Positions 16,845 through 24,000 are shown, numbered from the stretch's first letter. The stretch is DNA of 24,000 bases from Alphaproteobacteria bacterium (GCA_026126165.1 JAHCJR010000051.1:1015-25014); one strand, 5' to 3'. A program made the numbers and translations. Notes: generated by a model from the letters alone, not told the origin.

Positions 16845-17309
16845 TCAGGCCGCCTGCGCCTCGCCCTCGATGGCCGGGCGGGCGCGCTCGACCTTGATCT
16901 TGCGCGGCTTCATCGCTTCCGGCACTTCGCGGATCAGCTCGATCTGCAGGAGTCCATTCTCCAGGCTGGCTCCTGCCACGCGGATCGTGTCGGCCAGCGC
17001 GAAGCGGCGCTCGAATGCGCGGCGGGCGATGCCGCGATGCAGATAGCGGACCTGTTCGCCTTCGGGCTCGGCCTTTGCCTTGCCGCTCACGATCAGGGTG
17101 CGATCCTGCACGGTGATGTCGAGATCGTCCTCCGCGAAGCCGGCGACCGCGAGCGTCACGCGATAGCGGTCCTCGTCATGGGCCTCGATATTGTAGGGAG
17201 GGTAGCCCTGCGCGGATTCGTCCATGCGGGCGACGGTCTCGAACAGCCGGTCGAAATGATCGAAGCCGACGGTCGAACGCAGAAGGGGGGAAAGGTCGAA
17301 GGCACGCAT
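16845..17309 (-). CDS. Hsp20/alpha-crystallin-family small heat-shock protein (IbpA-like)
   Basis: MRAFDLSPLLRSTVGFDHFDRLF...YPPYNIE...YRVTLAVAGF...L.I...N.L.I is IbpA-like. The second ATG (17307-17309) is preferred because it sits 8 nt from the AGGAGG SD. The first ATG (17313-17315) is only 2 nt from it. Confidence 0.9.
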   Translation of the reverse strand: MRAFDLSPLLRSTVGFDHFDRLFETVARMDESAQGYPPYNIEAHDEDRYRVTLAVAGFAEDDLDITVQDRTLIVSGKAKAEPEGEQVRYLHRGIARRAFERRFALADTIRVAGASLENGLLQIELIREVPEAMKPRKIKVERARPAIEGEAQAA

Positions 17310-17406
17310 CGTCATATCCTCCTTGGAGCAACATGAATGATGACTTGGTCCGCCGTGAAGCCGGACCTACGATCCGGCCGGAGCCCGCCAAGCGGCGCCC
17401 CGGCCA
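17310..17406 (-). promoter_or_regulatory. ROSE-like RNA thermometer in the hsp20 5' leader
   Basis: The mRNA-sense sequence is UCAUGUUGCUC-CAAG-GAGGAUAUGA (17312-17336). It folds into a 10-bp stem (8 Watson-Crick and 2 G-U pairs) with a single bulged G in UUGCU opposite the SD. The stem sequesters GGAGGA and the first AUG. Two further GC-rich hairpins lie upstream in a ~97-nt leader. Confidence 0.5.
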
Positions 17407-17413
17407 CATCCCG

Positions 17414-17441
17414 ATTTGGGGAGGGCCGGCCCGGATTCAAG
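17414..17441 (-). promoter_or_regulatory. candidate RpoH (sigma32)-type heat-shock promoter of hsp20
   Basis: The minus-strand sequence is CCCCTTGAA-N14-CCCCAAAT. The -35 CTTGAA is at 17436-17441 and the -10 is at 17414-17421. The remembered consensus is CTTGAA-N13-15-CCCCATNT. Confidence 0.45.
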
Positions 17442-17476
17442 GGGAAGGATTAACCCCGCCTGGTTAGGATGGTCCG

Positions 17477-17899
17477 ATGTCCGACGCGCCCGCTCCCGCC
17501 ATGCCAAGCCTGTTCCTGGCCCGGACCTACGGGGAGGCGGAGTCTCTCCTGGCGGAGGCACGGGACTATCTGGCCTTCTGCGTCCGCACCGCCCATGCCG
17601 CGGTGCCGCCCGAACGCAAGCTGCATTTCGCCCTGGAATCGAGCCGGCTCACCGCGCGGCTGGTCAACCTGATGGCCTGGCTCCTGCTGCAACGGGCGGT
17701 CCATGCCGGGGAACTGTCCCGGCAGGCGGCGCTCGCCGAGGCGCCGGAACTCTCCCGCCGCGCCGGCATTCTCGCCAACCCGTCCGGCGAGGGCCTGCCG
17801 CTCGCCATGCAGGAACTCCTGCAGCGTTCGCACCGGCTCTATGTGCGCGTGGCCCGCCTCGACGCGATGGCAAGGGAACGGGTGCAGTCCGACCCCTGA
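17477..17899 (+). CDS. rcdA: DUF1465-family protein, RcdA-like (regulator of CtrA degradation)
   Basis: 140-aa ORF. ESSRLTARLVNLMAWLLLQRAVHAGEL and LLQRSHRLYVRVARLD resemble Caulobacter RcdA (ESMRLTTRLMQLASWLL.QRAV..GE...ERSERLY.RV..LD) as remembered. Confidence 0.7.
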   Translation: MSDAPAPAMPSLFLARTYGEAESLLAEARDYLAFCVRTAHAAVPPERKLHFALESSRLTARLVNLMAWLLLQRAVHAGELSRQAALAEAPELSRRAGILANPSGEGLPLAMQELLQRSHRLYVRVARLDAMARERVQSDP

Positions 17900-17969
17900 G
17901 GCGATCGGACAATGCCTGGAACGACCTGGACTCTCTGGATCGGTGCGCGCCCCGAGCGGTGCGCGCGCG

Positions 17970-18194
17970 TTATTTCATGCCGAGATTGGCGAAGCGCTTT
18001 TTGAACTTGGCGACCTGGCCGCCGGAATCGACAAGCCGGGTCTGGCCACCGGTCCAGGCCGGATGCGAGCGCGAATCAATGTCGAGCACCAGGGTTTCAC
18101 CCGCCTTGCCCCAGGTCGAACGGGTCTTGTAGGTGGTCCCGTCGGTCATCTGGACCGTGATTTCGTGATAGTCGGGGTGAATCTTCGCTTTCAT
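17970..18194 (-). CDS. rpmE: 50S ribosomal protein L31 (bL31), Cys-less form
   Basis: The 74-aa product is [30 protein letters not shown]...[19 protein letters not shown] (ATG at 18192-18194). No CxxC zinc-ribbon cysteines are present. The longer track ORF is an artefactual extension. Confidence 0.95.
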
Positions 18195-18248: not shown

Positions 18249-18462
18249 GCGCTTTCCGCCCCGAAGCAGCCATGCGGGGGAGCCGTGGGCATGGTCAAGG
18301 ATTGCGAAGATTCTTGAGTATTTACAAATACTTGCGGCACTACCTGCAAACCGTCCGCCAAACCCCGTGGGCGACGGCGGCCTTGCTGGGCCGTGCCGGG
18401 GGCTGCTATACCCCGATCTTCGAGGCCAAGGGGGCCGGGAACCGCCGGGGACAGGCAGCAGC

Positions 18463-18795
18463 ATGCATCTGAGCGACGCGGAGTTCGAGACCCTGGTCGA
18501 ACGTGTCCTGGAGCGCTGGCTCGATGCCATCGAGGATGCGGAACTGGCGCCGCTCGAGGCGGAGCTGCAGAACGGCATTCTGACCGTGCGCGCGGAGGGG
18601 GCGGGGACTTTCATCGTGAACAAGCATATGCCGCTCAAGCAGCTCTGGTATTCCTCGCCCTATTCCGGCGCGAGCCATTATGTGTTTGAGCCCGTCTCGC
18701 GGCTCTGGCGCAACACGCGCGAGGGCCAGGACCTGGCCGGCCTGTTCGGGGCCGAACTCTCGCGCGCCGGCGGCGGCAGAGTGGCGCTCGACTAG
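18463..18795 (+). CDS. cyaY: iron donor protein CyaY (bacterial frataxin)
   Basis: The 110-aa product starts at ATG 18463 ([25 protein letters not shown]...NGILTV....[23 protein letters not shown]). It aligns with E. coli CyaY as remembered. Confidence 0.85.
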
Positions 18796-20619
<1,824 letters not shown>

Positions 20620-20633
20620 CGCGGAGGGATGGC

Positions 20634-20921
20634 ATGTCGCGATTTTCGATTCTGGCGTTCTGTCTCGCCATGTCGGCCATAGTTCCGATCGAGGCGCGCG
20701 CGCAGGCGCCCGACAGTGCATCGGAGCAGGCTTATTGCGCGGCGCTGGTGCGCCAGTTCGATCGCTACTACGTGCGCGGCGAAGGCGGCACCGGTTCGGT
20801 CGGCAGTCTCGACCGGGCGCTGGGCGACAAGCTTTGCCGGGACGGCCGCTACGCGGAAGGGCAGGAGCGCCTGCGCCGCGCGATCCGCGCCATCGGCTTC
20901 GTCCCGGTCGAGCGTCCCTGA
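20634..20921 (+). CDS. small secreted hypothetical protein (signal peptide, 2 Cys)
   Basis: The 95-aa ORF starts 14 nt after the ABC stop and is preceded by GGAGGG. The N-terminus MSRFSILAFCLAMSAIVPIEARA-QA looks like a Sec signal peptide with an AxA site. I recognise no family. Confidence 0.55.
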   Translation: MSRFSILAFCLAMSAIVPIEARAQAPDSASEQAYCAALVRQFDRYYVRGEGGTGSVGSLDRALGDKLCRDGRYAEGQERLRRAIRAIGFVPVERP

Positions 20922-20923
20922 AC

Positions 20924-22324
20924 TCAGCGTTCGGTCAGCTTCATCTCGATGCGCCGGTTGCGGCGGTAGGCGATCTCGTCCGAACGCGGGTCGAGCGGCT
21001 GGAACTCGCCAAAGCCCGCAGCGGCGATGCGCGATGGCGGCACACCGCGGCTGATCATGTATTTGCTCACCGCCACGGCGCGCGCCGTGGAGAGTTCCCA
21101 GTTTGAGGGAAATTGCGGCGTGCTGATCGGCAGCGCGTCGGTATGGCCGTCGACGCGCAGGATCCAGGGCAGCCGGTCCGGGATGCGCGCCGAGACCTGG
21201 ATCAGGGTGCGCGCGATGGAATCGAGCTGGCGCCGGGCATTCTCGCTCAATTCGGCCGAGCCGCGGTCGAACAGCACCTCCGACTGCAGCACGAACCGGT
21301 CGCCGACGATCTGCACGTCCGGGCGGTTGCCGAGCACCTTGCGCAACTCGCCGAAGAACTCCGAACGGTACTGCGAGAGTTCCTCGACCTTCTGCGCGAG
21401 CGCCAGGTTGAGCCTGCGCCCGAGATCGGCGATCTGGACCTGGGATTCCTTGTCCCGCGCTTCCGCCACTTCCAGCGCGGCCTCGAGCCGTGCGAGCTGG
21501 GCGCGCAGCGCGGCGATCTGCTGGTTGAGCAGATCCACTTGCGCGCGGGCCTCCTCGGACACTTTCGTCTCGCCTTCGAGCCGGTCCTGGGTCTGGAGAT
21601 AGAGGCTCTGCAGCTGCGAGAGGCGAATCTCGCGCTGCTCGATCTCCTTCTGCGCCAGCAGCGTGCGTTCGCGCTCGTCGGCAAGGCGGGCTTCCAGCTC
21701 GCGGGTCCGGTCGCGAAGCTGTCCGCGCTCGCTTTCCAGACTGCCGACCCGGCCTTCCAGTTCCTGGCTACGGGTGCGCAGGCGCTCGCGCTCGTCGGCA
21801 AGCTCCGTGACCCGGCCTTCCAGTTCCCGGCCGCGGGTGCGCAACTGCTCGCTCTCGCCGGTGAGTGCCGCGACCTGGCCCTCCAGTTCGGCGCGAAGCC
21901 GGCGCAATGCGTCGATGTCGCGCTTGAGGCTCTCCAGTTCGGCGAGGCGCAGCCTGATTTCGTCCTCGCGCACGGCGAGCGACTTTTCCGCCTCCTCCGA
22001 TCGCCGCGTCAGGGCGTCGACCTTGAGCACCAGTTCGTCACGCTCCATTTCCGTGCGCGCCAGGCTCGCGCTCAGCACGGCAAGCGACTCGCGGAGGTCG
22101 GCGTTCTGCCTGCGCTCGAGATTGAGGGTCTCGGCCAGTTCGGCAATCTGCGCCGAGAGTTCCTTGAGGGCCCGGTCCCGTCCCGACAGGGCCTGCGTCA
22201 GGAAGTTCTGCGCCAGGACGAAGACGGTAAGCAGGAAGACGATGACCAGCAGCAGCGTCGACAGCACGTCGACGAACCCTGCCCAGGGATCGTAGCCCAG
22301 TCGCTTGGTGCGCGCCCGCGCCAC
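20924..22324 (-). CDS. MotB-like peptidoglycan-anchored protein with long coiled-coil spacer (N-terminal TM with Asp, C-terminal OmpA_C domain)
   Basis: The 466-aa ORF has a GTG start 6 nt after the MotA-like stop. The TM segment is WAGFVDVLSTLLLVIVFLLTVFVL, with an Asp as in MotB/ExbD/TolR. Residues ~45-320 are E/R/L/A/Q-rich heptad-like sequence. The C-terminus (RVDGHTDALP...NWELSTARAVAV..Y....GV...RI...GFGE..P......NRRIEMKL) is an OmpA/MotB peptidoglycan-binding domain. Confidence 0.8.
   Translation of the reverse strand: MARARTKRLGYDPWAGFVDVLSTLLLVIVFLLTVFVLAQNFLTQALSGRDRALKELSAQIAELAETLNLERRQNADLRESLAVLSASLARTEMERDELVLKVDALTRRSEEAEKSLAVREDEIRLRLAELESLKRDIDALRRLRAELEGQVAALTGESEQLRTRGRELEGRVTELADERERLRTRSQELEGRVGSLESERGQLRDRTRELEARLADERERTLLAQKEIEQREIRLSQLQSLYLQTQDRLEGETKVSEEARAQVDLLNQQIAALRAQLARLEAALEVAEARDKESQVQIADLGRRLNLALAQKVEELSQYRSEFFGELRKVLGNRPDVQIVGDRFVLQSEVLFDRGSAELSENARRQLDSIARTLIQVSARIPDRLPWILRVDGHTDALPISTPQFPSNWELSTARAVAVSKYMISRGVPPSRIAAAGFGEFQPLDPRSDEIAYRRNRRIEMKLTER
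21665..21889 (-). repeat. intragenic tandem repeat, 63-bp (21-aa) period, about 3.5 copies, within the MotB-like coiled coil
   Basis: The protein units are ELEGQVAALTGESEQLRTRGR / ELEGRVTELADERERLRTRSQ / ELEGRVGSLESERGQLRDRTR / ELEARLADERER (residues 146-220). The DNA units share long near-identical stretches, for example CGGCCTTCCAGTTCC.GGC..CGGGTGCGCA occurs twice. Confidence 0.7.
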
Positions 22325-22330
22325 GGCGGA

Positions 22331-23470
22331 TCAGCCCTTGCGCTCTTCGTCCGCCAGGGCGGCGATGGTGCGCGTCAGCAGCCTGATCTCGCTGCGCATC
22401 TCCTGAGAGAGCTGCTGGCGTCCCTCGCGCAGTTCCTCGAGCATCCGCGTCGCATAGACGTCGAGATTGCGCAGATGCGTCCGGCTCGCCTCGTCGAGGC
22501 CGCCCATGTCCTGCGCGCCGGCGAGCTTGGCCAGCACCGGCTTGAGTTCCATCTGGCTTTCCGCGAGGCGCACCAGCAGCGACTGTTCGGCGCGCATCTG
22601 GTCGCCGAGCGTCGCCAGCCGCTCGGAGAGCTGCAGCAGCGCGTGATTGGCGGAATTTCGCGCATCCTCGCCGCGCGCGATGGTGCGCTGGAGATTGTCC
22701 AGGCTGTCGGCGGTCTGTTCCAGCAGCGCCTGGACATAGGCCGGCACGGAGGCATCCGCCTCGATCGCCAGTCCGCCGCGGGTGATCTTGGTCTGCGAGG
22801 CGAGCCACTCCTCGAACTCATTGTAGAAGCGGTTCTGCGCCTGGCCCGCCTGCAGGTCGAGGAAGCCCAGCACCAGCGATCCGGCGAGGCCGAACAGCGA
22901 GGACGAGAAGGCGGTGCCCATGCCCGAGAGCGGATGTTCGAGGCCGCTCTTGAGCTGGGCGAAAAGCTGGCCGAAATCGCTGCTTTCCGGTGCCAGCGCC
23001 CGGATCGTCTCGCCGACCGAGCTCACCGTTTCCAGCAGGCCCCAGAAGGTGCCGAGCAGGCCGAGGAAGATCATGAGGCCGATCAGGTAACGGGAAATCT
23101 CCCGCTCCTCGTCGAGCCGGGCGCTGATCGAATCGAGCAGCGAGCGCGTGGAGAGGGTGGAGAAGGAGATGCGCTGGTTGCGATCGCCGAACATCGCCGC
23201 CATGGGCGCGAGCAGGCGCGGCGCCGGCGGCAGCGAGATGCCGGGCTCCGGGCGGCGGAAATTGTTCAGCCATTCCACCTCGGTGCGCAGCAGGAAGACC
23301 TGGCGGAAAATGAAGCCGATGCCGAACAGCAGCACCAGCAGGATCAGGCCGTTCAGCAGCGGATTGGCCAGGAAGGCGCGCTGCATCGGCATGAAGAGCA
23401 ACGCCGAGACGCCGGCCACCGCCGCGAGGAAGAGCGCCATGCGGGTCAGGAAGCGTTGCGGTCTGGTCAT
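22331..23470 (-). CDS. MotA/TolQ/ExbB-family proton-channel protein with ~170-aa C-terminal helical tail
   Basis: The 379-aa ORF has ATG at 23468-23470, preceded by GGAGAC. It has four hydrophobic segments in a 2+2 MotA-like layout. Family signatures are FLGLLGTFWGLLETV and GMGTAFSSSLFGLAGSLVLGFLD. Residues ~210-379 are helical, charged and coiled-coil-like. Confidence 0.8.
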   Translation of the reverse strand: MTRPQRFLTRMALFLAAVAGVSALLFMPMQRAFLANPLLNGLILLVLLFGIGFIFRQVFLLRTEVEWLNNFRRPEPGISLPPAPRLLAPMAAMFGDRNQRISFSTLSTRSLLDSISARLDEEREISRYLIGLMIFLGLLGTFWGLLETVSSVGETIRALAPESSDFGQLFAQLKSGLEHPLSGMGTAFSSSLFGLAGSLVLGFLDLQAGQAQNRFYNEFEEWLASQTKITRGGLAIEADASVPAYVQALLEQTADSLDNLQRTIARGEDARNSANHALLQLSERLATLGDQMRAEQSLLVRLAESQMELKPVLAKLAGAQDMGGLDEASRTHLRNLDVYATRMLEELREGRQQLSQEMRSEIRLLTRTIAALADEERKG

Positions 23471-23649
23471 CGGCGTCTCCGGGCGGAGTTGGGGAAGCGG
23501 CGGGCGCGCGCCGCCGCCCGGCGAGGCGCTCCCTGATACTGACCGGTGGATAATGGCCGGTCGGAGCCCTGCCGCGTCAAGGCCGGAGCGTAGCCGAGTC
23601 GGTCAAAAAGCCCATGACCCCGCTTCACATTTCCGCCAAGGCAGGCCGT

Positions 23650-24000
23650 TCAGCGTGCGGCGGGCAGCAGGTCGACGCGGTTCCGGGGGCCGCTATCGGT
23701 CGGGCCGACGGCGCGCACATCGATCCGCGTCGCGGCGATGCCGCGTTCGGTCAGGTAGGCACGCACCGCCAGCGCGCGGGAGAGGGCAAGCCGCTTGGCC
23801 GCCGCCGGGCTGTCGCCTTCCGCATAGGCATTGACCTGGACCCGCTCCTGGGTATTGGCGTTCAGCCGGTCGGCCAGCGCGGCGAGCTGGCCTTCCGCGG
23901 CCCGGGCCAGGCCCGGACTGCTGCCCTCGAAGGGAATGCTGATCGGCAGGTTCACGCCGCCGGCGGGCAGTGCTGCGGTCTGGGCCGGCGCGGCTGCCGG
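23650..24000 (-). CDS. OmpA-like domain protein (C-terminal part; 5' end outside the window)
   Basis: The frame stays open from 23955 to the window edge with no stop, so the gene probably starts beyond 24000. F.GSSPGL......L..LA..L.......V.V.AYA...........LSRALAVRAYL...GI...RI.V...G fits an OmpA_C-like fold. Confidence 0.65.
   Translation of the reverse strand, partial: PAAAPAQTAALPAGGVNLPISIPFEGSSPGLARAAEGQLAALADRLNANTQERVQVNAYAEGDSPAAAKRLALSRALAVRAYLTERGIAATRIDVRAVGPTDSGPRNRVDLLPAAR

What the first reader, a model, noticed from the sequence alone, without database searches (positions are those of the whole stretch)
20924..24000. Orphan stator-like module: MotA/ExbB-family channel with a long tail, a MotB-like anchor with a ~275-aa coiled coil, and an upstream OmpA-like gene
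Seen in sequence: three co-directional minus-strand genes. The gene at 22331..23470 has the MotA/TolQ/ExbB signatures (LGLLGTFWGL; GMGTAFSSSLFGLAGSLVLGF), a 2+2 TM layout, and an extra ~170-aa charged helical C-terminal tail. The gene at 20924..22324 starts 6 nt after its stop (TGA-TCCGCC-GTG). It has a single TM helix carrying an Asp (GFVDVLSTLLL), as in the proton-binding helix of MotB/ExbD/TolR, and ends in a clear OmpA/MotB peptidoglycan-binding domain. Between these sit ~275 residues of heptad-like E/R/L/A/Q sequence, where canonical MotB has a short plug or linker. At about 0.15 nm per residue, a continuous coiled coil would be about 40 nm. That is longer than a typical periplasm, so it would have to fold back, lie along the wall or reach the outer membrane. 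A further OmpA-like gene lies 179 nt upstream.

The window contains no flagellar, exbD/tonB, tolR/tolA/pal or Zorya zorC/zorD-like genes. Neighbours are an ABC exporter and a small secreted orphan.

Inference: this looks like a 5:2-type ion-driven motor or anchor complex of unknown output. It could be, for example, an envelope-spanning mechanotransducer or ruler, or a ZorAB-like envelope sensor. I do not recognise it as any characterised system.
Basis: partly seen in the sequence, partly recalled or inferred. Interest (0 to 1): 0.75.

Follow-up and report, generated by a model that had tools for sequence, protein, structure and literature searches.

The report
Conserved wall-anchored stator-like motor pair
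These genes encode a flagellar-stator-like membrane channel and a cell-wall anchor on a very long coiled-coil stalk; the pair is conserved across many Alphaproteobacteria, including ones without flagella, is usually mislabelled "flagellar motor protein", and its real job is still unknown.

Summary
Three co-directional minus-strand genes encode three proteins.

- **A (22331-23470):** a 4-TM subunit of the ExbB/TolQ/ZorA/MotA superfamily with a 170-aa cytoplasmic helical tail.
- **B (20924-22324):** one TM helix with an invariant Asp, a roughly 285-aa unbroken heptad coiled coil, and a MotB-type peptidoglycan-binding domain.
- **Upstream gene (23650 to beyond 24000):** a secreted OmpA-like protein, Pro/Ala-rich in its Minwuia homologue.

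The pair is not an orphan. B passes NCBIfam PRK09039.1-2. Each protein search returned at least 8000 90%-identity clusters. The A-B pair is adjacent in 82 of 83 genome loci, from Rhodospirillales and Acetobacteraceae to Rhizobiaceae. These loci sit in a housekeeping neighbourhood and never hold flagellar, Ton, Tol or ZorC/D genes.

The "motA/motB" genes studied in non-flagellated Komagataeibacter belong to this family. Overexpression there gave elongated cells, and GFP fusions were polar.

B ranges from 344 to 836 aa, changing in heptad or 21-aa steps. The window itself holds a 63-bp tandem repeat. This argues against a periplasmic ruler.

The best reading is a proton-driven, wall-anchored 5:2-type motor with a housekeeping envelope or morphogenesis role and an unknown output. 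It is a new variant of a known kind, of moderate to high interest.

The parts
23650..24000 (-). 3' part (116 codons) of the upstream gene, which runs off the window. It encodes a secreted protein with a divergent C-terminal OmpA-like domain.
   Evidence: PF00691 scores 42 bits. Homologues sit directly upstream of A on the same strand in 59 of 83 loci, median 332 aa. The Minwuia homologue has a signal peptide, about 200 aa of Pro/Ala-rich linker and the OmpA-like C-terminus. The gap to A is about 32-33 nt in Minwuia and Acetobacter.
23471..23649 (-). 179-nt intergenic region between the upstream OmpA-like gene and A. GGAGA lies 5 nt before the ATG of A.
   Evidence: Sequence read. No sigma-70-like promoter, no convincing terminator and no CtrA box was found.
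22331..23470 (-). A subunit, 379 aa. It has four TM helices (about residues 9-29, 38-61, 128-150, 184-206), a 65-aa cytoplasmic loop and a C-terminal tail.
   Evidence: Family length is constant at about 380 aa, and 611 50%-identity clusters match at E<1e-30.
23036..23065 (-). A residues 136-145, LGLLGTFWGL, in TM3. This is the signature helix shared with ExbB and TolQ (GLFGTVWG).
   Evidence: Invariant in alignments A1 and A2. It is the only segment that hhalign matches to E. coli TolQ and ExbB.
22862..22924 (-). A residues 183-203, GMGTAFSSSLFGLAGSLVLGF, in TM4 with the conserved Ser/Thr face.
   Evidence: G183, M184, F188, S189, S191, G194 and L195 are invariant. The segment is covered by the PADLOC ZorA matches at 125-262.
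22334..22843 (-). A residues 210-379, the cytoplasmic tail. It comprises a low-confidence linker (227-256) holding the conserved PAYxxALLEQTA motif, then two amphipathic helices (257-319 and 327-378).
   Evidence: AF2 secondary structure and pLDDT. Hydrophobic period is 3.5-3.6. The tail is always present but diverges between orders: identity to the S. meliloti homologue stops near residue 308.
22325..22330 (-). 6-nt spacer between the A stop codon (TGA) and the B start codon (GTG). This suggests translational coupling.
   Evidence: The gaps are 2 nt in Minwuia, S. meliloti and Acetobacter.
20924..22324 (-). B subunit, 466 aa, a member of NCBIfam PRK09039.1-2 ('peptidoglycan -binding protein').
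   Evidence: NF006543 scores 447 bits against a cut-off of 305. B lies directly downstream of A in 82 of 83 loci.
22208..22282 (-). B residues 15-39, the single TM helix. It carries the WxGFVD motif; Asp19 is encoded at 22268-22270.
   Evidence: W14, V18 and D19 are invariant in 37 diverse homologues and conserved in S. meliloti. The N-terminus carries 5 basic residues, which places it in the cytoplasm.
21332..22192 (-). B residues 45-331, the continuous heptad coiled-coil stalk. It would be about 42 nm long if straight.
   Evidence: Autocorrelation peaks at multiples of 7. Period 3.5 is coherent across the whole stretch. AF2 gives helices 15-214 and 223-331. The ends are conserved and the middle is an insertion hot-spot.
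21745..21889 (-). 63-bp tandem repeat, 2.3 copies, 80% matches. It encodes 21-aa (three-heptad) units at B residues 146-194.
   Evidence: TRF. The closest relative, P0122 (88-93% identical), is exactly 21 aa shorter here.
20927..21298 (-). B residues 343-466, the MotB-type OmpA-like peptidoglycan-binding domain. It carries GHTD, NWELSxARA and NRRIE.
   Evidence: PF00691 scores 66.7 bits. PDB sequence hits are MotS, MotB and PomB. Foldseek top hits are MotS, DVU_2228, PomB and H. pylori MotB at E 5e-10 to 1e-8. The motif residues are invariant.

Best explanation
The genes encode a housekeeping envelope module conserved in many Alphaproteobacteria. It is a peptidoglycan-anchored, proton-driven stator-type complex.

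**Shown here**
- A is a ZorA/ExbB/TolQ/MotA-superfamily channel subunit.
- B has the TM-Asp of MotB/ZorB/ExbD/TolR, a continuous coiled-coil stalk and a MotB-type wall-binding domain.
- The two genes are tightly coupled and always adjacent.
- The family sits in a fixed core-genome neighbourhood and also occurs in non-flagellated bacteria.

**Inferred by analogy with solved MotAB and ZorAB**
- Five A subunits surround the two B TM helices.
- The B dimer is held on the wall through its parallel coiled coil and dimeric OmpA-like domains.
- Protons passing by Asp19 and the Ser/Thr face of A TM3/TM4 turn the A ring around B.
- The work or signal leaves through the cytoplasmic coiled-coil tail of A, a short version of the ZorA tail, to an unidentified partner.

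**Likely role**
- The long stalk acts as a flexible tether needing only a minimum length of about 165 residues. It does not act as a ruler.
- The most likely biological role concerns envelope or cell-shape and division housekeeping. It is not flagellar rotation or phage defence.
For: **Superfamily membership of A**
- Top Foldseek PDB hits are ExbB, TolQ and ZorA, with MotA from rank 47 (prob up to 1.0, TM-score on target 0.45-0.61).
- 17 of 17 diverse members hit ZorA profiles and 14 of 17 hit PF01618.
- The GLLGTFWG helix aligns to TolQ and ExbB.

**B subunit**
- Asp19 is invariant.
- The domain is MotB-type.
- The stalk is an unbroken heptad coiled coil.

**Coupling and co-occurrence**
- The A-B gap is 2-6 nt.
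- The two genes are adjacent in 82 of 83 loci.

**Housekeeping status**
- Each protein search returned at least 8000 clusters.
- Synteny with IMPase, EF-P, an MsbA-related ABC exporter, rpmE and DUF1465 is conserved from this window to S. meliloti.
- The family is present in a Holosporales MAG and in Acetobacter tropicalis, and the Komagataeibacter genes below belong to it.

**Experimental evidence**
- In K. hansenii, overexpression elongates cells and GFP fusions are polar (PMC6570709).
- Disruption mutants were obtained and synthesised more dense, compact cellulose (PMC7347698).

**ZorAB precedent**
- ZorAB is a wall-anchored 5:2 motor that signals through a cytoplasmic tail (bioRxiv 10.1101/2023.12.18.572097).
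Against: - Stoichiometry, ion flow and rotation were not tested, and no multimer model could be run.
- Sequence similarity of A to solved stators is thin. A profile search of PDB sequences found none, and hhalign probabilities were 9-55%.
- Pfam MotA_ExbB is below its cut-off for this protein.
- The A tail is modelled with low confidence (pLDDT 55-74) and is poorly conserved between orders.
- No cytoplasmic partner gene is linked. The only linked third gene is periplasmic, which would fit a periplasmic output better.
- Parts of the B stalk are strongly conserved in sequence. This suggests the stalk binds something and is more than a tether.
- The Komagataeibacter data come from overexpression and may be indirect.
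Confidence: 0.5

Rival explanations
1. Tol/Ton-like periplasmic force transducer. The A ring is the fixed part, and proton flow drives movement of the B dimer. The conserved stalk then pulls on or remodels a periplasmic, wall or outer-membrane partner. That partner could be the linked Pro/Ala-rich OmpA-like protein. In effect B would be a TolR-TolA-Pal-like fusion.
For: - The only conserved third gene is periplasmic: a secreted OmpA-like protein with a Pro/Ala-rich linker in the Minwuia homologue. It is present in 59 of 83 loci with gaps of about 30 nt.
- Segments of the stalk are strongly conserved (RDRxKELEARLAxExERTLLAQKE; LLNQQIxALRxQL), as expected for a binding surface.
- The A signature helix is closest in sequence to TolQ and ExbB, and the top structural hits are ExbB and TolQ.
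- The overexpression filamentation in K. hansenii resembles that reported for tolQR (PMC6570709).
- An MsbA-related exporter lies convergent in 25 of 83 loci.
Against: - B ends in a MotB-type wall anchor with all binding motifs intact. In known systems such an anchor makes B the fixed part.
- The upstream gene is missing in 24 of 83 loci and in S. meliloti.
- Its length does not co-vary with B length (r=0.10).
- Stalk length varies 2.4-fold, which is hard to reconcile with a defined reach.
Confidence: 0.25
2. Static tether or scaffold. The complex no longer works as a motor. It simply ties the inner membrane to the wall, or builds a periplasmic coiled-coil scaffold at the poles.
For: - The very long coiled coil has weak hits to cytoskeletal rod families such as crescentin and SMC.
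- GFP fusions were polar in K. hansenii.
- No output partner has been identified.
Against: The Asp of B and the channel-lining helices of A are the most conserved parts of both proteins across hundreds of 50%-identity clusters. That pattern is expected only if ion coupling is under selection.
Confidence: 0.1
3. Zorya-like anti-phage envelope sensor. A ZorAB-type motor detects envelope damage and signals through its tail to effectors encoded elsewhere.
For: - ZorA profiles are the best sequence matches for A: 17 of 17 members, best 8e-15.
- ZorB3 matches B at 7e-23.
- A has a cytoplasmic coiled-coil tail, as ZorA does.
Against: - No ZorC/D/E/F/G-like gene occurs in the window or in any of the 83 loci.
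- NCBIfam ZorA scores 16 bits against a cut-off of 500.
- The tail is 170 aa, and the ZorA matches cover only the TM3-TM4 core of A (residues about 125-262).
- The fixed core-genome position is conserved from Rhodospirillales to Rhizobiaceae and the distribution is very broad. That is unlike defence islands.
Confidence: 0.07
4. Flagellar stator, as the database labels say ('flagellar motor protein MotA', 'chemotaxis protein MotB').
For: - Source annotations give these names.
- A has 4 TM helices, and B has one TM helix plus an OmpA-like domain. B matches MotD and MotS models at 1e-28 to 1e-30 over the C-terminal domain only.
Against: - No curated MotA model is matched. MotB, MotD and MotS scores are far below their cut-offs: 105 against 283, and 101 against 264.
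- There is no MotB_plug hit.
- hhalign to E. coli MotA gives 9% probability.
- No flagellar genes are linked.
- The family is present in Komagataeibacter, which lacks flagella.
Confidence: 0.03

Closest known systems
ZorAB, the membrane core of the Zorya anti-phage system (PDB 8QYD, 8VVN; bioRxiv 10.1101/2023.12.18.572097)
   Same: - It gives the best sequence-profile matches for A.
- A has a TM core followed by a cytoplasmic coiled-coil tail.
- B has a TM-Asp and a dimerising peptidoglycan-binding domain.
- It is among the top structural hits.
   Different: - The tail here is 170 aa, whereas the ZorA tail projects about 70 nm.
- B here carries a 165-650-aa periplasmic coiled coil. I do not recall ZorB having one (own knowledge, not checked here).
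- There are no ZorC/D effectors.
- The pair is a core gene pair in a fixed housekeeping locus, not a mobile defence island.
Flagellar stators MotAB, PomAB and MotPS
   Same: - A has a 4-TM topology.
- B has an N-terminal TM-Asp and a MotB-type OmpA-like domain, which gives the best structural matches.
- The gene order is A then B, with tight coupling.
   Different: - There is no detectable similarity in the FliG-binding cytoplasmic loop, which is 65 aa here.
- There is no plug motif.
- Curated MotA and MotB models are not met.
- There is no flagellar context.
- The family is present in bacteria without flagella.
- A long coiled coil replaces the short linker.
ExbB-ExbD and TolQ-TolR(-TolA-Pal)
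   Same: - The GL(L/F)GT(F/V)WG helix is shared.
- These are the top Foldseek hits.
- The role is a non-flagellar envelope role.
- Taken together, B resembles a TolR TM helix plus a TolA-like long helix plus a Pal-like anchor.
   Different: - A has 4 TM helices rather than 3.
- B lacks the ExbD/TolR periplasmic domain.
- No TonB or TolA partner gene is linked.
Komagataeibacter hansenii 'motA/motB' (Jacek et al. 2019, PMC6570709)
   Same: - It is the same family. Their BLAST hit WP_086640501 sits in the cluster of P0304, which matches window A at E 7.5e-83 and 50% identity.
- The Acetobacter locus has the same three genes, and its B is NF006543 at 455 bits.
   Different: - Its B is the short form (321-326 aa against 466 aa here).
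- It was interpreted as a motility gene pair, and no mechanism was proposed.

Membership tests
NCBIfam PRK09039 (NF006543, 'peptidoglycan -binding protein') | Whole-protein score above the curated cut-off of the equivalog model. | tested here: met
   Window B scores 447.4 bits against a cut-off of 305. Acetobacter B scores 454.9 bits. S. meliloti B scores 692 bits on the sister model NF006544.
MotA/TolQ/ExbB/ZorA superfamily (A subunit of 5:2 motors) | Pfam PF01618 at the gathering score. | tested here: not met
   The score is 17.2 bits against 22.9. Still, 14 of 17 diverse family members match at E<=0.01, best 4.7e-5.
MotA/TolQ/ExbB/ZorA superfamily (A subunit of 5:2 motors) | Fold of the TM core: long TM helices extending into the cytoplasm. 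| tested here: met
   The top Foldseek PDB hits are ExbB, TolQ and ZorA, with MotA from rank 47. Probability reaches 1.0 and TM-score on the target is 0.45-0.61, but E is only about 1e-3.
MotA/TolQ/ExbB/ZorA superfamily (A subunit of 5:2 motors) | A5B2 assembly around two B TM helices. | not testable with these tools
   Only monomer prediction was available.
MotB/ZorB-type B subunit | Single N-terminal TM helix with a conserved Asp. | tested here: met
   D19 is invariant in 37 homologues within the WPGFVD motif.
MotB/ZorB-type B subunit | C-terminal OmpA-like peptidoglycan-binding domain with binding motifs. | tested here: met
   PF00691 scores 66.7 bits. GHTD, NWELSxARA and NRRIE are invariant. 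The best folds are MotS, PomB and MotB. Actual peptidoglycan binding was not tested.
Flagellar stator MotAB | Curated MotA and MotB equivalog models met. | tested here: not met
   No MotA model is hit. B scores 105 against 283 (MotD), 101 against 264 (MotS) and 64 against 301 (MotB).
Flagellar stator MotAB | MotB plug helix (PF13677). | tested here: not met
   No hit at E<=0.1. The coiled coil starts directly after the TM helix.
Flagellar stator MotAB | Linked to, or dependent on, flagellar genes. | tested here: not met
   None occurs in the window or in the 83 loci. The family is present in Komagataeibacter, which lacks flagella.
Zorya (ZorAB plus effectors) | ZorA full-length model with its long tail. 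| tested here: not met
   NF033917 scores 16 bits against a cut-off of 500. PADLOC matches cover only residues 125-262. The tail is 170 aa.
Zorya (ZorAB plus effectors) | Adjacent ZorC/ZorD (or E, F, G) genes. | tested here: not met
   No such conserved neighbour occurs in 83 loci. PADLOC finds nothing for the third gene.
ExbBD / TolQR | B subunit with an ExbD/TolR periplasmic domain, and a TonB or TolA partner. | tested here: not met
   B carries OmpA-like and coiled-coil regions only. No TonB or TolA gene lies in the neighbourhood.

The most novel reading that the evidence does not exclude
This family could be the housekeeping sister of Zorya's ZorAB. It would be a wall-tethered rotary motor found widely in Alphaproteobacteria that reports or exploits the mechanical relation between the inner membrane and the wall. 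Its periplasmic coiled-coil tether changes length through in-register 21-aa repeat gain and loss. Its cytoplasmic tail would drive an unknown morphogenetic or cell-cycle partner. This would be a fifth functional class of 5:2 motor, beside flagellar, Ton/Tol, gliding/T9SS and Zorya.
Probability: 0.2. Interest if true: 0.85.

Novelty: new variant of a known kind. Interest (0 to 1): 0.6.

Why it matters
Ion-driven 5:2 motors are known to power four kinds of process: flagella, Ton/Tol envelope transactions, gliding and type IX secretion, and Zorya immunity.

This family would add a widespread housekeeping member with a distinct design: a wall anchor on a 24-100 nm coiled coil, plus a short ZorA-like tail. 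It occurs in a class that includes rhizobia, acetic-acid bacteria and Holosporales.

Thousands of genomes currently label it "flagellar motor protein MotA" or "chemotaxis protein MotB". That label misleads motility inference in non-flagellated species.

The system is experimentally tractable in Sinorhizobium, Azospirillum and Komagataeibacter.

For this particular window the value is modest. The locus is an ordinary member of the family. Its one local peculiarity is the recent 63-bp repeat expansion in the stalk.

Tried and rejected
- **Contig look-up:** the window's own contig was not on record by exact protein look-up, so the upstream gene could not be completed from its source.
- **PDB sequence searches:** single-sequence and profile searches with A found no stator.
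- **Profile-profile comparison:** hhalign against E. coli TolQ, ExbB and MotA aligned only the signature helix.
- **Regulatory motifs:** the CtrA-box search found nothing in the window, and the promoter and terminator scan of 20500-24000 found nothing useful.
- **Longer A homologues (467-614 aa):** they carry no extra Pfam domain.
- **Ruler hypothesis:** tested by comparing lengths. B varies from 344 to 836 aa, with no correlation to A (r=-0.01) or to the upstream protein (r=0.10). Rejected.
- **Alpha-proteobacterial 'signature proteins':** checked whether the pair is among those of Gupta. CC3292 (224 aa) and CC3295 (169 aa) differ in length from A (379 aa) and B (466 aa), and those papers do not mention MotA or OmpA.
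- **S. meliloti Rgs/Tol paper:** it does not mention MotA, MotB, OmpA or ExbB.
- **Literature:** No paper on Caulobacter, Brucella, Agrobacterium or Sinorhizobium orthologues turned up.
- **Taxonomic reach:** presence in Caulobacterales, Sphingomonadales, Rhodobacterales proper and Rickettsiales could not be established. Cluster look-ups gave mostly unnamed MAG proteins.

Full report
**1. Observation**

The ORF list confirms three co-directional minus-strand genes.
- A lies at 22331..23470 (379 aa, ATG).
- B lies at 20924..22324 (466 aa, GTG).
- An OmpA-like ORF ends at 23650 and runs off the window.

The A-B junction reads TGA-TCCGCC-GTG. The gap between the upstream gene and A is 179 nt.

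The rest of the window encodes ordinary genes and nothing flagellar, Ton, Tol or Zorya-like:
- short-chain dehydrogenases, a MaoC hydratase and a carboxyltransferase;
- asparaginase II, an alcohol dehydrogenase and a methyltransferase;
- DinB, an acyl-CoA synthetase and an EamA transporter;
- an IbpA-type small heat-shock protein and a DUF1465 protein;
- ribosomal protein L31, frataxin/CyaY and an MsbA-related ABC exporter (TIGR02204, 893 bits).

**2. The A subunit**

Evidence from sequence profiles is as follows.
- Pfam MotA_ExbB matches below its cut-off, at 17.2 against 22.9 bits.
- PADLOC ZorA1 and ZorA3 profiles match residues 125-262 at about 1e-10.
- At family level, 14 of 17 diverse members hit PF01618 at E<=0.01. 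All 17 hit ZorA1 and ZorA3 profiles, best 8e-15.
- A profile of 57 homologues found no stator among PDB sequences.
- hhalign to E. coli TolQ, ExbB and MotA aligned only the FLGLLGTFWGL / YIGLFGTVWG helix for TolQ and ExbB. Probabilities were 31-55%, against 9% for MotA.

Structure prediction gives clearer support.
- AlphaFold2 with the alignment gave a confident TM core (pLDDT 85-96) and a weaker tail.
- The top Foldseek PDB hits are ExbB, TolQ and ZorA, with MotA from rank 47. Probability reaches 1.0, TM-score on the target is 0.45-0.61, and E is about 1e-3.

The basic-residue distribution puts the N-terminus, the 65-aa TM2-TM3 loop (10 Arg) and the tail in the cytoplasm. This is read directly from the sequence.

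The tail has three parts. A low-confidence linker holds the conserved PAYxxALLEQTA motif. Two amphipathic helices follow, at 257-319 and 327-378, with hydrophobic period 3.5-3.6.

**3. The B subunit**

- The N-terminal 14 residues carry five basic residues.
- The TM helix carries the WPGFVD motif, and W14, V18 and D19 are invariant.
- Residues 45-331 are helical. AF2 gives helix 15-214, a short low-confidence break, then helix 223-331.
- Residue autocorrelation peaks at every multiple of 7 up to 63.
- The 3.5-residue hydrophobic period is stronger over the whole stretch than over its parts, which indicates one continuous heptad register. A straight stalk would be about 42 nm.
- The C-terminal domain is OmpA-like (PF00691, 66.7 bits) with GHTD, NWELSxARA and NRRIE invariant.
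- Its closest solved relatives by sequence and by fold are stator B subunits: MotS, DVU_2228, PomB and H. pylori MotB.
- B as a whole passes the curated cut-off of NCBIfam NF006543 (PRK09039.1-2, "peptidoglycan -binding protein") at 447 against 305 bits. MotB, MotD and MotS models stay far below theirs.

**4. Distribution and context**

- Each protein search returned at least 8000 90%-identity clusters, the cap of candidates scored.
- A has 611 50%-identity clusters at E<1e-30, nearly all about 380 aa long.
- A genome scan returned 80 loci. They come from Rhodospirillales, Azospirillum, Acetobacteraceae, Kiloniellales, Defluviicoccus and other Alphaproteobacteria.
- Adding Minwuia and Sinorhizobium, A is followed directly by B in 82 of 83 loci. 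The exception is a truncated contig.
- The upstream OmpA-like gene is present in 59 loci.
- Other recurrent neighbours are all housekeeping:
  - inositol monophosphatase (53 loci);
  - EF-P (45);
  - the convergent MsbA-related exporter (25);
  - thiamine-phosphate synthase (24);
  - rpmE (21);
  - Hsp20 (16).
- The S. meliloti chromosome shows the same order as the window: IMPase, A (368 aa), B (342 aa, NF006544 at 692 bits), convergent ABC, rpmE, DUF1465.
- Rhizobium, Ensifer and Shinella have the pair, as do a Holosporales MAG and Neomegalonema.
- I could not establish presence in Caulobacterales, Sphingomonadales or Rickettsiales.

**5. Published work on the family**

A search for "ExbB proton channel" plus "alphaproteobacteria" found Jacek et al. 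2019 (PMC6570709).
- They studied "motA" (348 aa, 4 TM) and "motB" (321 aa, one TM plus an OmpA-like domain) of Komagataeibacter hansenii, which has no flagella.
- These were the only motility-like genes in that genome.
- Their Table 1 lists WP_086640501 of Acetobacter tropicalis as 63% identical to their MotA.
- That accession is a member of the cluster represented by P0304, which matches window A at E 7.5e-83 and 50% identity.
- The A. tropicalis locus has the same three genes: OmpA-like 351 aa, A 353 aa, B 326 aa.
- Its B is NF006543 at 455 bits and 52% identical to the C-terminal half of window B.

The Komagataeibacter genes therefore belong to this family. The link for B rests on adjacency and architecture.

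Reported phenotypes are these.
- Overexpression gives elongated cells, three-fold wider colony spreading and looser cellulose. GFP fusions are polar.
- Disruption mutants were obtained and synthesised more dense, compact cellulose (review PMC7347698).
- The authors state that the partner receiving the energy is unknown.

**6. The stalk is not a ruler**

- Across 80 loci B ranges from 344 to 836 aa, while A stays near 380 aa. B length correlates neither with A (r=-0.01) nor with the upstream protein (r=0.10).
- Within Acetobacteraceae alone B runs from 326 aa (Acetobacter) to 702 aa.
- Lengths among close homologues step by 7 or 21 residues.
- Insertions fall at two hot-spots in the middle of the stalk. 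The first 75 or so and the last 130 or so stalk residues are well conserved.
- In the window a 63-bp tandem repeat (21745-21889, 2.3 copies, 80% matches) encodes 21-aa units. The closest relative, P0122, is exactly one unit shorter.

The stalk therefore grows and shrinks in register. A minimum of about 165 stalk residues (about 24 nm) seems to be required, and extra length is tolerated. The periplasm cannot vary 2-4-fold in width, so long stalks must tilt, bend or lie along the wall. That last step is inference.

**7. How it most likely works**

Shown here:
- homology of A and B to the two subunits of 5:2 ion-driven motors;
- strongest conservation on the ion-coupling elements;
- a wall-binding domain of the stator type;
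- tight A-B coupling;
- core-genome, non-flagellar and non-defence context.

Inferred by analogy with MotAB and ZorAB (ZorAB: and PDB titles):
- an A5B2 complex;
- B fixed to peptidoglycan;
- proton flow turning A around B;
- output through the cytoplasmic tail of A.

I give this reading 0.5.

The main rival, at 0.25, places the output in the periplasm in a Tol-like manner. Three observations favour it. The only linked third gene is periplasmic. Parts of the stalk are conserved like a binding surface. Overexpression causes filamentation.

Other rivals are a purely static tether (0.1), a Zorya-like defence sensor (0.07) and a flagellar stator (0.03). The last is contradicted by every test made.

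**8. Comparison with known systems and novelty**

The system works like MotAB or ZorAB but meets the membership criteria of neither, nor those of ExbBD or TolQR (see the membership table). It is a full member of the named but uncharacterised PRK09039 family.

The window's locus is thus an ordinary member of a known database family. The family as a system is a distinct, mechanistically unexplained variant of the 5:2 motor theme.

I rate it "new variant of a known kind" with interest 0.6. The pair is not an orphan, and some experimental work already exists. The score stays substantial because a widely conserved housekeeping stator with an unknown output is a real open question.

Noticed in passing
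window 21745-21889 (within B): A 63-bp tandem repeat (2.3 copies, 80% matches) encodes three-heptad units of the coiled coil. The nearest relative (P0122, 445 aa) has one unit fewer. Stalk length is therefore polymorphic between close relatives and changes in register.
   Followed up: yes
window 18388-18795 (+) and 18796-20619 (+): A frataxin/CyaY gene abuts an MsbA-related ABC exporter (TIGR02204, 893 bits) with no gap between them. The exporter lies convergent to B in 25 of 83 loci, and in S. meliloti the two 3' ends overlap by 14 nt. Whether this long-conserved adjacency has any functional meaning for the motor pair is unknown.
   Followed up: partly
window 20660-20921 (+): An 87-aa ORF with a signal-peptide-like N-terminus lies between the ABC exporter and B. 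It has no NCBIfam hit and no homologue in any of the 82 related loci searched. It may be a lineage-specific small secreted protein, or it may not be a gene.
   Followed up: partly
window 16845-18194: An IbpA-type small heat-shock gene (16845-17315, -), a DUF1465 gene (17477-17899, +; from memory this is the family of Caulobacter RcdA, not checked here) and rpmE (17970-18194, -) form part of a synteny block shared with S. meliloti.
   Followed up: partly
L061, L063, L058, L081, L004 (B homologues): Some lineages carry B proteins of 620-836 aa, which is up to about 650 residues of periplasmic coiled coil. Acetobacter and Komagataeibacter have 321-326 aa. No other feature of the loci was seen to change with this.
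   Followed up: partly
alignment A3, row P0138 (462 aa): This B homologue seems to contain an internal duplicate of the linker segment (ADLGQRLN...YRSDFFG...IVGDRFVLQSE) inside its coiled coil. That suggests an internal duplication or an assembly artefact.
   Followed up: no
L009, L018, L057 (record titles): Three loci with typical family members are labelled Gammaproteobacteria, Patescibacteria and Mycobacteriaceae MAGs. Their 56-60% identity to the window suggests mis-binning or mislabelling rather than true occurrence outside Alphaproteobacteria.
   Followed up: no
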